This document shows positions 9,901 to 14,439 of a stretch of DNA of 64,000 nucleotides, one piece after another. How positions within the stretch are numbered: the stretch's first letter is position 1; the number at the start of each line of letters is the position of its first letter. The DNA is from Nemertoderma westbladi. Taxonomy: Eukaryota > Animalia > Xenacoelomorpha. Position numbers and translations under genes: made by a program. Location of the stretch: the NCBI GenBank assembly GCA_032718475.1, contig JAUCBJ010001318.1, forward strand, positions 56,904 to 120,903, written 5' to 3'. Below the pieces are notes generated by a model. That model was not told the origin of the DNA. It saw only the letters and a program-made list of their open reading frames with translations, and searched no databases.

Positions 9901-12900
9901 TATTATTTAACAAGTTTAATTTTATTTAACACGTGTAATATTATTTAACAAGTTTAATATCATTTAACATGTTTAATTTTATTTAACATGTTTAATTTTA
10001 TTTAACATGTTTAATTTTATTTAACATGTTTAATTTTATTTAACATGTTTAATTTTATTTAACACGTGTAATATTATTTAACAAGTTTAATATCATTTAA
10101 CATGTTTAATTTTATTTAACACGTGTAATATTATTTAACAAGTTTAATTTTATTTAACACGTGTAATATTATTTAACAAGTTTAATATCATTTAACATGT
10201 TTAATTTTATTTAACATGTTTAATTTTATTTAACATGTTTAATTTTATTTAACATGTTTAATTTTATTTAACACGTGTAATATTATTTAACAAGTTTAAT
10301 ATCATTTAACATGTTTAATTTTATTTAACACGTGTAATATTATTTAACAAGTTTAATATCATTTAACACGTGTAATATTATTTAACAAGTTTAATATCAT
10401 TTAACATGTTTAATTTTATTTAACATGTTTAATTTTATTTAACATGTTTAATATTATTTAAAGCGCTTCACGTCACCCTGTGGAGAAACCTCCCGAGATA
10501 GCCTCCCATCAAAAACAAAAGCCTACTTTCGATCAACTCATAACTGAATGTAACTTTTATGTCTATCCATTTTCTATTATATTATATTCCAAAGTTTCTA
10601 TTTTCATTTTAATTATGGAAATCGTATTTATCGATAGGACTTTGTTCGAAATAATTACTAAATAAAATATATTCGTGAGGAGGCCATTATTTATGTTGCA
10701 CCATAAAACTAAAATGTAAACAGACACATGCAGACTAACACAGAATAAACAAGGAACATGCTGAAAACATGGCACGTGTAAGAAGAGAGAAATAAGAACA
10801 ATAAAGAAATCCAACCTGCATTCCAATAATTGCATAAATGTAGAATAACAGACCGATAAGTAGACAGACATACGGTAGACACTTAAAGGCCTGGATGAAT
10901 GTCCACATAAGTATACGGATGGTAAATCCGAGACGAAGGAGTTTAACAAGTCGTGCAGCTCGAAACAGTCGTAGAATTGCGATGTTGGGAATAATTCTGG
11001 CACCTGAGCCGTGATCCTGAGAGATGGTTAATGCGAGAAGGGTTAACAAACCCTTATAAGATTACTATATAACGCACTCAATATATTTCAAATGATATGA
11101 AATACAATATCTTTTAGAGTAGCCTAAATATTTACTAAATCTACCTCAAATACAACCTTCAATCACACACAAACCATTCATTAATGTCATCTTGTATTGT
11201 ATAATACTTGCGAATGTTCAACACCTCCATTAGAATGCGGTGTGGTGCGTTTTATATAAGTATTTCTTCGTTGATTGAATTATAAAGTTATCTATCACAA
11301 CTAGGATCGGCATGCTGCATTTTTAAGTCGTCCACATGCTCAAGCATACCATCCTTTGAGCTTATGCACTTTGAGCTTGTGTTCTATCACAAGGTCCGGT
11401 AGGTTGTTTAATTACAGAGATTTCGATCGATCCAAACCACCATTGCTGGCATTTTATGGACAATAGGAAATAGAATTTCGTACTTCGTTCACCTCAAATA
11501 CAGGAATACATAACAGTTACCATCTGTGTTTTGAATCTGAACGTCATGTTTTATATTGATCTTTAATAATGCACATAAGCTTTGTCGGTTGTCCAAACTC
11601 AAACCCAAATGCCTTAGAACATTACAACGGTTCGCTGTTCACACAGTATCAAGATCCTGATAAATTGTGGCACCATCGTACAACAGAAAGGGTGAGATGA
11701 GTTCACTTCCGCTAATTAAAACCAATAAAGAAGTGTCATAACTCAACTATAAGATTTAGTAAATAATTTAACATGCAAATTTAAGCAGAAGAGGAGAGAG
11801 AAAATTTAACTATTAATTAAAAATAATTAAACTAAAAAGAAAACAATTCAATGATACTGTTGTAAAATAGTTGTTAGCTGCGTGAGATGCAAAGAGATAG
11901 TCAGTGAGTGAAATAAGCACTAAAACGAAACAAAGTCAAACAGTTGAGAGGTTAAGAACTCATGTTGATTGTTGCGTCGCACCTGCATGCCGACAATGGC
12001 GTAGATAAAGTACAGCACCCCAATGAGCAGACAGACGTATGGGAGAGCTTTGAAGGCCTGCACGAAGGTGTACAAGAGCACCCGGATGGTGGAACCCTGG
12101 CGAAGGAGCTTAATAAGCCGAGCAGCTCGGAAGAGTCGCAGAACTCCGAAGTTTGGTAGTTTCTTCTCAGCTCCAAGGTCAGCCTATATCGCGCACAAAA
12201 CCAATCAGTCACAATATGCACAACCGCAATGAAAATCACTGCACCAACAGAATTCGGCAATTATTTTCCTTAAGTGTAATTAAATTAGGTAATTGTTTTG
12301 GTTAGAAAAAGTAATAAATATGTACACTACTGTAAAACATTGATTATATTTATATTTAATACAGTACAGGTATTCATAGTTTTGTGACCATTTCCTACCC
12401 CCCCCCCCCCCCCCCCCCCCCACGTCATACTACAACCTCCACAAAGAGAAGTCTCCGTGTCATCACTCACAACAGTACATACGCGCGCGAGCACACACGC
12501 GAACATAGACTCCGTCACCCATAACAAGTATTTATTGACAAACATGTGTGTGTAAAGGTGTAATTATCCGACGTCATGGTTATTGACGTGTACAACATCA
12601 CCACGGTTACTAACAAACCCAAACCCAGTCACCATGGCTACTAATTAACAAGTACCCAGGCACCAGTACAAGAACAAGCCGTCAGATATCCCGTAACCAT
12701 GGCTACCAGCTGACCTGTACCCCGACGCAGGCGTAGATAAAGAACATCATGAAAATCAACAAGCACACGTAGGGTAAGGCCTTGAAAGCCTGGATGAAGG
12801 TCCAGAGAAGGACACGGATCTCGGAGCCAAGACGGAGCAGTTTAACCAATCGCGCAGCGCGACACAACCGCAACACTCCCAGATTGGGTAAAATGTCAGC

Positions 12901-14439
12901 CCCGATAAACCCCTGTATGTATTATAGTGGTGGTGATATTACACCAATGTAATGTACATCTACTGTTTGGAATAAACATAAACATACTTAATATGCCGCT
13001 TATTAATATCGACACTACTTTAATTTATAATTTAAATAAATAATATAATATAAAAAATGTAGGTCATGTATACAATTATAATATAATTGTTAGAGTTAGA
13101 TTAACTTACAAACTTCTCGACGATGGAGACACCGACATCGGCGATGCTACCGAGAACTGTGATAAAGTCGAACACGTTCCATCCATCATAGAAGTAATAC
13201 TACAAAAATAAAAGAGTTAACGATAACTAACAGTTGTGTAGCTATGACACTGATAAAATGGGAAAAAACGTTTCAGATGACGCGATATACAACATTACAT
13301 GCTGGAAGGAATTTAACAATGAGAAAGAAATAATTCAGAACAAATATCAAAATGTTAATATAAATTAACAATCAAGTGAGGTAGTTCATACTGTATAGAG
13401 GCCAACCCCGACAACTTTAGGACTATAAGTTTTAAGTAAACCTACTACTACTACTACTACTACTACGATAGGTAAACAAGCCGGCACAGCATTCTTAAGT
13501 GAACCTAATTGTAAACAAACAGTCTTTACGAAGTTTTTATGGAAAATTATCCAACATATAATATAATATAAAGAGTGGGTTCCTACAGTATCATATTCAT
13601 AATATAAATAATATCCGTTCATAATAATTGCTACAAAAAGAATGTGGCAAACTGAAAAGGAATTAAAAGCAAGCTATAAGAGTAGTATGAGAAGATAGGA
13701 ATGGAAATTATAACAAAGATCAGTAAGTCAGACAAGCAATCAACACGCACTACATAAATATTAGGGCAAACTAAATAATAAAACTACTAAATAAAAAATA
13801 CCCTCAGACTATAAGCTACTCAACGCTAGTCGGATATGCGGTTCTTTTGTAAATCGAAAAACTACCACCTCCCTCCCCTAGCACAAGCACCCCTTGGTCG
13901 CTAGGTTATTTCCAATTGGAAGTTACAAAATTGACAATCAAATTTGGGAGCACTGAAATGTAATTCGCACAAATAAATCGTAGATAGACAGGATTTGATA
14001 ATGATAATTTTTGCTAAAACTGTGATATTCAACCTGATATTATTCACCAACTAAATCACACACCATAACAAATGCAGCAAAGATAGGGAAATATCAGGCA
14101 TTGCATAATCGTTAAAGTCAAGGAAATGTGAGGAAAACATAAGAAAAAAGTTAAATCATATCGAAAAAAAAAGAATCAAGTAGGAAAAATGATAATACAG
14201 TAGTAGGAAAACATTGTGATTTAGTAATAATAAAGTGTTATAAAGTTTAGGAGGCCAAAGCTGAAATTCATATGAAAAGAGTTAAGTGAGAGACAAACAT
14301 TCGCATAACCTATTATATCAGCTACCGGTACCTGACTCAAAGCGATTATTTTTAGAACCGCTTCTAGTGTAAAGAATACAGTGAATGTGACATTCACATA
14401 GAAGAGACCAACATCAATACTTTCGTCCATTTCGTAAAA
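3780..14439 (-). CDS. Voltage-gated calcium channel alpha-1 subunit, Cav2 (P/Q/N/R, cacophony/unc-2-like) family; partial, multi-exon (domain IV to EF-hand region)
   Basis: Ten GT-AG exons with compatible phases translate to Cav2 domain-IV hallmarks: [40 protein letters not shown], FRCxTGEx[41 protein letters not shown]. Confidence 0.95.
4357..6758 (-). repeat. 32/34-bp minisatellite whose unit is the last ~17 nt of the 6742-6869 exon plus its GTAAGT splice donor
   Basis: Minus-strand unit TACGATCC(CC)ATGTGCTAC|GTAAGTTAATCTCTA; about 70-75 copies by length. Confidence 0.97.
6742..6869 (-). CDS. Cav2 exon: end of IVS6 and start of C-terminus ([43 protein letters not shown])
   Basis: cag acceptor, gtaagt donor; 128 nt, phase 0-2; near-invariant Cav motif. 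Confidence 0.96.
7674..7848 (-). CDS. Cav2 alternative exon pore-[21 protein letters not shown]...[14 protein letters not shown]
   Basis: tag acceptor, gtgagt donor; 175 nt, phase 2-0; TGE retained. Confidence 0.9.
8221..8458 (-). CDS. Cav2 alternative exon pore-A (IV P-loop to S6): [20 protein letters not shown]...[13 protein letters not shown]
   Basis: tag acceptor, gtatgt donor; 238 nt, phase 2-0; selectivity-filter TGE retained. Confidence 0.88.
8696..8790 (-). CDS. Cav2 exon: IVS5-P loop ([32 protein letters not shown])
   Basis: tag acceptor, gtaagt donor; 95 nt, phase 0-2; NNNF and LLLFR motifs. Confidence 0.93.
9707..10461. repeat. AT-rich ~19-bp minisatellite (TTTAACATGTTTAATTTTA and variants), quasi-palindromic
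   Basis: Tandem units read directly. Confidence 0.93.
10816..11016 (-). CDS. Cav2 alternative exon S4-c: [67 protein letters not shown]
   Basis: cag acceptor, gttgga donor; 201 nt, open, phase 0-0; lies within ORF-track entry 10735..11049. Confidence 0.9.
11983..12183 (-). CDS. Cav2 alternative exon S4-b: [67 protein letters not shown]
   Basis: tag acceptor, gtgcga donor; 201 nt, open, phase 0-0. Confidence 0.9.
12715..12912 (-). CDS. Cav2 alternative exon S4-a (IVS3-S4 linker, S4, S5): [66 protein letters not shown]
   Basis: cag acceptor, gtcagc donor; 198 nt, open, phase 0-0. Confidence 0.9.
13110..13199 (-). CDS. Cav2 exon: IVS3 ([30 protein letters not shown])
   Basis: tag acceptor, gtaagt donor; 90 nt, phase 0-0; WNxFDF motif. 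Confidence 0.95.
14332..14439 (-). CDS. Cav2 exon: IVS1-S2 loop and IVS2 ([36 protein letters not shown])
   Basis: tag acceptor at 14440-14442, gtaccg donor; 108 nt, phase 0-0; [12 protein letters not shown]2 motif. Confidence 0.92.

What the first reader, a model, noticed from the sequence alone, without database searches (positions are those of the whole stretch)
10816..12912. Three tandem, apparently mutually exclusive exons for the domain-IV voltage sensor of a Cav2 channel
Seen: three paralogous exons (198, 201, 201 nt), all open, phase 0-0 and flanked by AG/GT. They are strongly diverged at silent sites yet keep every S4 charge (LRLxRAARLxKLLR). They differ in the S3-S4 linker ([12 protein letters not shown] / [13 protein letters not shown] / [13 protein letters not shown]), the S4-S5 linker (LGSE / QGST / LGFT) and S5. 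Knowledge: Drosophila cacophony has alternative domain-I S4 exons, and small IVS3-S4 linker splice variants alter gating and toxin sensitivity in vertebrate Cav2. I know of no triplicated IVS4-S5 cassette. Inference: swappable voltage sensors that tune gating or toxin binding from a single gene.
Basis: partly seen in the sequence, partly recalled or inferred. Interest (0 to 1): 0.76.

Follow-up and report, generated by a model that had tools for sequence, protein, structure and literature searches.

The report
Triplicated voltage-sensor exon in calcium channel
An animal calcium-channel gene carries three old, intact copies of the exon for one voltage-sensing helix and two copies of a nearby pore exon, which cells likely splice in one at a time to make up to six channel versions with predicted differences in gating; similar exon swapping is known in other ion channels, but at other positions.

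Summary
Confirmed. Three open, AG/GT-flanked, phase 0-0 exons (198/201/201 nt) each encode the S3-S4 linker end, S4, S4-S5 linker and S5 of Cav2 domain IV. Silent sites are near saturation and dN/dS is 0.02-0.12, so these are old copies under selection, not an assembly repeat. All six combinations are open. The exon is single-copy in all 80 fetched loci and in four echinoderms' annotated isoforms. The copies keep identical gating charges but break otherwise invariant positions, so tuning would come from linkers and S5, not charge. Not shown: no RNA run was listed, no close relative was found, nothing visible enforces exclusivity of the triplet, and recent loss of one copy is not excluded. Duplicated alternative exons are common in Cav/Nav genes (cacophony IS4A/B, SCN exon 5); my searches found no report of this exon. 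The scan earlier noted Cav2 alternative exon pairs in another genome. New variant of a known kind.

The parts
14332..14439 (-). Single exon, IVS1-S2 loop and IVS2 (donor position approximate; a second GT lies 6 nt further on)
13110..13199 (-). Single exon, IVS3; common upstream donor (GTAAGT) for the triplet
12715..12912 (-). Alternative exon A (66 aa): S3-S4 linker end, IVS4, S4-S5 linker, IVS5; most divergent (Phe-to-Cys in S4, Glu in the linker); T-poor acceptor, donor GTCAGC
11983..12183 (-). Alternative exon B (67 aa): closest to the pan-animal consensus (46/55); donor GTGCGA
10816..11016 (-). Alternative exon C (67 aa); donor GTTGGA; two GCATG motifs within 90 nt downstream
8696..8790 (-). 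Single exon, IVS5-P loop and P1 helix (phase 0-2); common acceptor for the triplet and common donor for the pair
8221..8458 (-). Alternative exon D1 (238 nt, phase 2-0): domain-IV filter glutamate, P2 helix, long P-S6 loop with 5 cysteines, first half of IVS6
7674..7848 (-). Alternative exon D2 (175 nt, phase 2-0): same segment with the usual 3-cysteine loop
6742..6869 (-). Single exon, end of IVS6 and start of the C-terminus
3780..3918 (-). Single exon, proximal C-terminus (EF-hand region; label recalled)
12590..12944 (-). Candidate 15-bp RNA stem (about 12944-12930 with 12604-12590) bracketing exon A and covering its acceptor region; suggestive only
   Evidence: p = 0.008 in 1 of 8 exon-flank tests

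Best explanation
This Cav2 gene holds three intact, selected copies of its domain-IV S4-S5 exon and two copies of its domain-IV pore-loop exon, and likely splices in exactly one of each, which would give up to six channel isoforms predicted to differ in activation voltage or kinetics and in the outer pore. Shown: the copies, their frames, their age and their constraint. Inferred: the exon duplicated twice within this lineage (all three share Ser-to-Ala at a position invariant in every comparator); copies diverged in the S3-S4 linker, S4 side chains, S4-S5 linker and S5, which couple sensor movement to the gate, while keeping all charges. For D1/D2, exclusivity would be enforced by frame (both or neither gives a stop, so nonsense-mediated decay). 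For A/B/C frame does not help; the choice most likely rests on weak splice sites plus cell-type splicing factors (RBFOX-type motifs follow B, C and D2 but not A or D1) and possibly a local stem that hides exon A. These regulatory steps are the weakest part.
For: Open frames and matching phases; six of six single-choice combinations stop-free, both or neither D exon gives a stop. Pairwise dN/dS 0.018, 0.072, 0.092, neutrality rejected at p <= 8e-10; under a clock, per-exon dN/dS 0.025-0.12 and omega = 1 rejected for each exon in 3 of 3 topologies, p <= 4.2e-7. Introns show no long similarity; only the exons form a long repeat family. Donors of A/B/C are non-consensus and their acceptors T-poor (T 0.23-0.41) against GTAAGT at 4 of 5 single exons and T 0.50-0.77, as expected of regulated exons. 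Shared Ala at a site that is Ser in 40/40 and 52/52 distinct comparator cores; a tree holding A, B, C together scores 7.0 log units higher than the free search and is not rejected, p-AU 0.68. Precedent: cacophony IS4A/B changes activation voltage (PMC11828482, passages); Cav2.2 VSD IV activates close to pore opening (PMC11389781, passages); P-S6 loop cysteines of repeat IV affect Cav3 permeation (PMC7382465, passages).
Against: No transcript evidence. Without a clock, omega = 1 is not rejected for C (p 0.64, 0.53) and only weakly or not for B (p 0.027, 0.40). Loss of function during the last roughly 0.1 (A, B) to 0.16 (C) substitutions per site is compatible with the data. D1 versus D2 does not reject neutrality on 43 aligned codons (omega 0.47, p 0.11). 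A/B/C double inclusion and total skipping are in frame and no docking-selector pairing was found (0 of 8 cross-tests under p 0.1). No orthologous copies in a relative: best identity to any comparator core is 43, 48 and 45 of 55 for A, B and C. Identical S4 charges limit the size of any gating change. The free exon tree did not group C with A and B. Domains I-III are not in the window, so the gene's completeness is unverified.
Confidence: 0.6

Rival explanations
1. Only one or two copies (most likely B, the closest to consensus) are used today; the others were functional for most of their history but are recently silenced relics.
For: A and C each carry 6 residues never seen in 40 comparator cores, B carries 3; A has the weakest acceptor and a candidate stem over it; recent death is not excluded; the unconstrained model cannot reject neutrality for C.
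Against: All three keep frame, AG/GT and every S4 charge; clock-model dN/dS is low on every branch; two independent deaths just before sampling are unlikely (inference).
Confidence: 0.17
2. All copies are spliced one at a time but are functionally near-equivalent; they persist because each has taken over a tissue or stage through its own splicing signals, not because gating differs.
For: Gating charges identical; many substitutions conservative; the whole domain IV of this gene is on a long branch (1.02 changes per column), so some odd residues reflect lineage rate.
Against: Private changes fall at positions invariant in 40/40 and 52/52 comparators; S3-S4 linkers differ in charge and length; D1 adds 21 residues and two cysteines.
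Confidence: 0.17
3. The stretch is a truncated or decaying piece of a Cav2 gene, so the exon copies do not contribute to a channel.
For: No exon for domains I-III or IVS1 in the 49.5 kb upstream, which is filled with mobile elements.
Against: 10 of 10 exons found are open with intact splice signals; strong purifying selection; long introns rich in repeats are already seen inside the gene.
Confidence: 0.05
4. Assembly or haplotype artefact, like the four identical copies of this exon in the Schistosoma bovis model P0001.
For: P0001 shows that this exon can appear as identical repeats in a gene model.
Against: Copies here are 29-37% different in DNA, mostly at third positions, with unrelated introns.
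Confidence: 0.01

Closest known systems
Drosophila cacophony (Cav2) IS4A/IS4B mutually exclusive exons (PMC11828482, passages read)
   Same: Cav2 gene of an invertebrate with tandem alternative exons in an S4 segment; shown there to change activation voltage and localisation.
   Different: Repeat I, two copies, 99 nt (33 aa). Here repeat IV, three copies, 198-201 nt, reaching through the S4-S5 linker and S5; function untested.
Chordate SCN (Nav) exon 5a/5b (PMC12772994, passages and section 5 read)
   Same: Duplicated mutually exclusive exon in a four-repeat channel (that it lies at repeat I S3-S4 is recalled); Rbfox2 sites and an RNA stem bias the choice, as hinted here.
   Different: Sodium channel, two copies about 91% identical, 92-nt-type frame-shifting pair; here three copies at 63-71% nucleotide identity in frame-neutral phase.
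Other duplicated exons in domain IV of invertebrate Cav2
   Same: Molluscan pair in the IVS1-S2 region (PMC5818475, passages); a Patiria isoform with an alternative IVS2 exon and three versions of the IVS5-P exon among 15 Amphiura isoforms; two versions among 15 Antedon isoforms; two tblastn hits for that exon in loci L009, L061, L070, L071, L077.
   Different: Those flank the exons duplicated here; the S4-S5 exon and the filter/P-S6 exon were single in the same datasets.
NALCN exons 15a/b, 31a/b and Cav3 exon 12a/b, Cav3 D4L6 loop (PMC4436565, PMC7382465, passages read)
   Same: Alternative pore-loop exons with different cysteine counts or filter residues; D1/D2 cover the loop called D4L6 there.
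   Different: Both D1 and D2 keep the filter glutamate; D4L6 variants in Cav3 are described as separate genes in cnidarians, not as spliced exons, and not in Cav2.
Vertebrate Cav2.1 exon 31 / Cav1.1 exon 29 IVS3-S4 linker variants
   Same: Splicing at the IVS3-S4 linker changes gating or toxin sensitivity (PMC11828482 passage on Bourinet 1999; PMC4886277 and PMC5279877, search listing and abstract start only).
   Different: Short optional inserts, not replacement of S4 and S5.

Membership tests
Tandem duplicated mutually exclusive exon cluster | Neighbouring homologous exons for the same protein segment, between single flanking exons | tested here: met
Tandem duplicated mutually exclusive exon cluster | Same phases, canonical splice sites, each copy gives an open frame | tested here: met
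   (6 of 6 combinations stop-free)
Tandem duplicated mutually exclusive exon cluster | Each copy under purifying selection | tested here: inconclusive
   Met for A, B, C pairwise and under a clock; not resolved for B and C without a clock, nor for D1/D2
Tandem duplicated mutually exclusive exon cluster | Transcripts contain exactly one copy, and every copy is used | not testable with these tools
   No RNA holder listed; no protein record of this gene found
Tandem duplicated mutually exclusive exon cluster | Copies conserved in related species | tested here: inconclusive
   No close relative in the collections searched (domain IV about 57-62% identical to the best hits); distant animals have one copy
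Frame/NMD-enforced exclusive pair | Including both or neither exon shifts the frame | tested here: met
   D1/D2 only: 238 and 175 nt, stops in both cases
Frame/NMD-enforced exclusive pair | Same test for A/B/C | tested here: not met
   Skipping all or including all three leaves the frame open
Dscam-type docking site/selector cluster | One intronic site complementary to a selector beside each copy | tested here: not met
   0 of 8 cross-tests under p 0.1; only a stem around A, p 0.008 in 1 of 8 flank tests; no relatives for a covariation test
Cav2 alpha-1 subunit | Repeat IV closest to Cav2 rather than Cav1, Cav3 or Nav | tested here: met
   (93, 89, 86 bits for Cav2.2/2.1/2.3; 74 or less for others); nests among bilaterian Cav2, 100/100, in a tree without Cav1 outgroup
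Cav2 alpha-1 subunit | Filter glutamate in repeat IV | tested here: met
   TGE-x-W in both D1 and D2
Cav2 alpha-1 subunit | Complete four-repeat gene | not testable with these tools
   No genome held; no upstream exon in the window

The most novel reading that the evidence does not exclude
A deep-branching bilaterian rebuilds most of the working half of Cav2 domain IV by splicing: three S4-S5 couplers times two filter/outer-loop modules give six channel types from one gene, each with its own activation range and outer-pore chemistry (the long, five-cysteine loop changing permeation, block or auxiliary-subunit and toxin contact), in a segment that is nearly frozen from corals to humans. It would be a natural mutagenesis series for how VSD IV drives the Cav2 gate without changing charge.
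Probability: 0.3. Interest if true: 0.68.

Novelty: new variant of a known kind. Interest (0 to 1): 0.5.

Why it matters
How the four voltage sensors of presynaptic Cav2 channels set opening is still being worked out, and VSD IV appears to be one of the limiting ones (PMC11389781). Here evolution kept three versions of IVS4-S5 with the same charges but substitutions at otherwise invariant positions, plus two outer-pore loops, in one genetic background: a compact, testable set of natural variants. It also adds two new sites to the list of independently duplicated exons in Cav genes (ten events, all at different exons, in human and fly; PMC9741552 section 16) and poses a splicing question, since nothing in the frame enforces exclusivity of the triplet.

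Tried and rejected
Own genome: none held. RNA runs: no RNA holder listed for 8200-14500; this is no evidence either way. Lineage: a 30-row tree puts the gene among bilaterian Cav2 on a long branch, beside three echinoderms at 83/87, not starred; I leave it unplaced. Unconstrained per-branch dN/dS was unstable through saturation; the clock model was added afterwards and both are reported. Docking-selector pairing: 21 intron pairs with 40 shuffles (the three best other than A's stem involve a poly-G run or p about 0.05) and 16 tests with 300-500 shuffles: rejected except the stem at A, which does not survive correction (0.008 x 8 = 0.06). Steric exclusion by a distant branch point: AG-free zones before A, B, C are 47, 55, 36 nt and the introns 531 and 966 nt: rejected. 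Minor-spliceosome incompatibility: all donors are ordinary GT types: rejected. Nova-type YCAY clusters: not enriched. RBFOX-type motifs: TGCATG at 11777, 10732, 7355, each after B, C, D2; GCATG twice after C, p 0.002 in 1 of 20 flanks, noticed post hoc; 3 in 7.6 kb against about 1.4 expected is not an excess. Fold of D1 alone: mean pLDDT 67.8, pTM 0.35, loop predicted as three short helices; disulfides not measurable. P0002 (walrus, degenerate copies) was left out of conservation counts; P0001's identical repeats were counted once. Literature: ten searches found no report of a duplicated IVS4-S5 exon in a Cav channel; the library lacks most subscription papers, and the positions of the third cacophony event and the two Ca-alpha1D events in PMC9741552 are in a figure I could not see (its supplement lists gene names only).
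Full report
Observation. The three exons are in the sequence as described: A 12715-12912, B 11983-12183 and C 10816-11016 on the minus strand, 198, 201 and 201 nt, AG before and GT after, phase 0-0, no stops. They are 43-48 of 67 identical in protein and 63-71% in DNA, with differences concentrated at third codon positions (33-37 of 58, against 7-8 at second positions). 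Exon B matches repeat IV of human Cav2.2 best (E 4.7e-26), then Cav2.1 and Cav2.3, then Cav1, Nav and Cav3. Only the exons, not the introns, form a long repeat family. This is not an assembly repeat of the kind seen in the Schistosoma model P0001, whose four copies are identical.

Gene context. A profile of 15 Cav2 proteins finds ten exons in the window, from IVS2 (14439) to the proximal C-terminus (3780), and nothing further upstream; the 49.5 kb upstream holds mobile elements, so the rest of the gene presumably lies beyond the window (inference). All six one-of-three by one-of-two combinations are stop-free; both or neither D exon gives a stop; all or none of A/B/C stays in frame.

Selection. 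Pairwise codon models give dN/dS 0.018 (A-B), 0.072 (A-C) and 0.092 (B-C) with dS 1.7 or more, rejecting neutrality at p <= 8e-10, so at least two copies were constrained for most of their history. With sister copies held to equal silent divergence, per-exon dN/dS is 0.025-0.12 and omega = 1 is rejected for every exon in 3 of 3 topologies. Without that constraint the fit is unstable and neutrality is not rejected for C, and barely for B. A recent death, within about 0.1 (A, B) or 0.16 (C) substitutions per site, cannot be excluded. D1 against D2 is uninformative (21 of 43 identical, omega 0.47, p 0.11), though both keep every invariant column of a 17-row alignment.

What differs. This segment is very conserved: among distinct comparator cores several positions are invariant in 40/40 and 52/52 (both sets were retrieved by similarity to the query). 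All three exons share Ala for an invariant Ser, which points to duplication within this lineage; a tree holding them together is better than the free tree by 7.0 log units and not rejected (p-AU 0.68), although the free tree separated C. Private changes at invariant or near-invariant sites: A has Phe-to-Cys within S4, Glu in the S4-S5 linker and two S5 changes; B has a Tyr in S5; C has Met and Cys around the linker-S5 bend and a Tyr in S5; A and C share Gln-to-Leu after S4. All S4 charges are the same. The D1 loop spans 60 residues with 5 cysteines, against 39 and 3 in D2; 96 of 98 distinct comparator loops have 3, one has 5, one has 2, and the longest is 54. A low-confidence model gives the D1 loop as short helices.

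Distribution. None of 80 fetched metagenome loci has more than one S4 motif; 30 of them span IVS3 to the pore, 18 of these with introns, and each has one copy. Annotated isoforms of four echinoderms (Amphiura 15 of 29, Patiria 4 of 4, Diadema 2 with this region of 3, Antedon 15 of 17) each show one S4-S5 exon and one filter/P-S6 exon. Neighbouring domain-IV exons are, however, duplicated elsewhere: the IVS5-P exon in Amphiura (three versions), Antedon (two) and five loci, the IVS2 exon in Patiria and in molluscs (PMC5818475, passages). No close relative was found; domain IV is about 57-62% identical to its best hits and sits on a long branch among bilaterian Cav2, weakly beside echinoderms (83/87).

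How it most likely works. One of A/B/C and one of D1/D2 would be spliced in (inferred). For the pair, frame and nonsense-mediated decay suffice (frame shown, decay inferred). For the triplet the mechanism is open. Steric and minor-spliceosome routes do not fit and no docking-selector set was found. What remains is weak splice sites at all three (donors GTCAGC, GTGCGA, GTTGGA; T-poor acceptors), a 15-bp stem that brackets exon A and covers its acceptor region (p 0.008, 1 of 8 tests), and RBFOX-type TGCATG motifs (name recalled) after B, C and D2 but not after A or D1 (post hoc). A stem plus Rbfox2 bias the choice of SCN exon 5b (PMC12772994, passages), which makes this a fair lead, no more. Functionally, the swap changes the S3-S4 linker end, S4 side chains, the S4-S5 linker and S5, which couple the sensor to the gate (established knowledge). 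VSD IV of Cav2.2 activates near the voltage of pore opening (PMC11389781, passages), IVS3-S4 variants change gating and toxin sensitivity in vertebrates (PMC11828482 passage; listings), and repeat-IV P-S6 loop cysteines affect permeation in Cav3 (PMC7382465, passages). Modest shifts in gating are therefore predicted; toxin escape has no evidence here.

Comparison and novelty. It works like cacophony IS4A/IS4B, which alters activation voltage (PMC11828482, passages), and belongs by anatomy to the tandem duplicated exons that are enriched in voltage-gated channels, with ten independent events at ten different exons in human and fly Cav genes (PMC9741552, section 16 read whole). Ten searches of the held library showed no duplicated IVS4-S5 exon or spliced Cav2 filter/P-S6 pair; most subscription papers are not held, and three fly events in PMC9741552 are located only in a figure I could not see.

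Verdict. Real and probably functional; a new variant of a known kind. The triplication of a nearly frozen segment together with an alternative filter/outer-loop exon is unusual and directly testable, but the class is familiar, the organism is unplaced, and there is no transcript, orthologue or functional evidence. Interest 0.5.

Noticed in passing
window 4357-6752 (minus strand intron after exon 6742-6869): A minisatellite of about 72 copies of a 32-34 nt unit that contains the end of the exon and its donor site; 60 exact copies of the 10-nt exon/donor junction motif. The spliceosome would have to pick the first of some 60 identical donors; reading past it meets a stop at once (read from the sequence).
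   Followed up: partly
window 21277-35241: Cluster of ORFs resembling a Polinton/Maverick-type element (label recalled): an integrase core (PF00665), a TBP-like ORF at 25112-25744 (PF00352, E 5e-10), an 1123-aa ORF and several 190-300 aa ORFs without Pfam match.
   Followed up: partly
window 44008-51908 and 59163-64000: Two related BEL/Pao-type retrotransposon copies in opposite orientation (Peptidase_A17, DUF1759, integrase zinc domain in the first).
   Followed up: partly
window 37934-41425 (minus): 1164-aa stop-free frame with no Pfam match.
   Followed up: no
window 54965-55717 (plus): Endonuclease-like ORF of a probable non-LTR retroelement (PF03372 below cut-off).
   Followed up: no
window 1-3556 and 9707-10461: Further intronic minisatellites: 20-nt unit x 177 and 19-nt unit x 40.
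   Followed up: no
window 12594-12722: Three degenerate copies of a 33-nt motif right after the donor of exon A; the last supplies one arm of the candidate stem.
   Followed up: partly
P0003 cluster (Amphiura), P0218 cluster (Antedon), loci L009, L061, L070, L071, L077: The IVS5-P exon of Cav2 has three versions among Amphiura isoforms, two among Antedon isoforms and two tblastn hits in five loci: a recurrent duplication next to the one studied.
   Followed up: partly
P0001 and P0002: Schistosoma bovis model with four identical copies of the IVS4-S5 exon (probably an artefact) and a walrus record with several degenerate copies.
   Followed up: no
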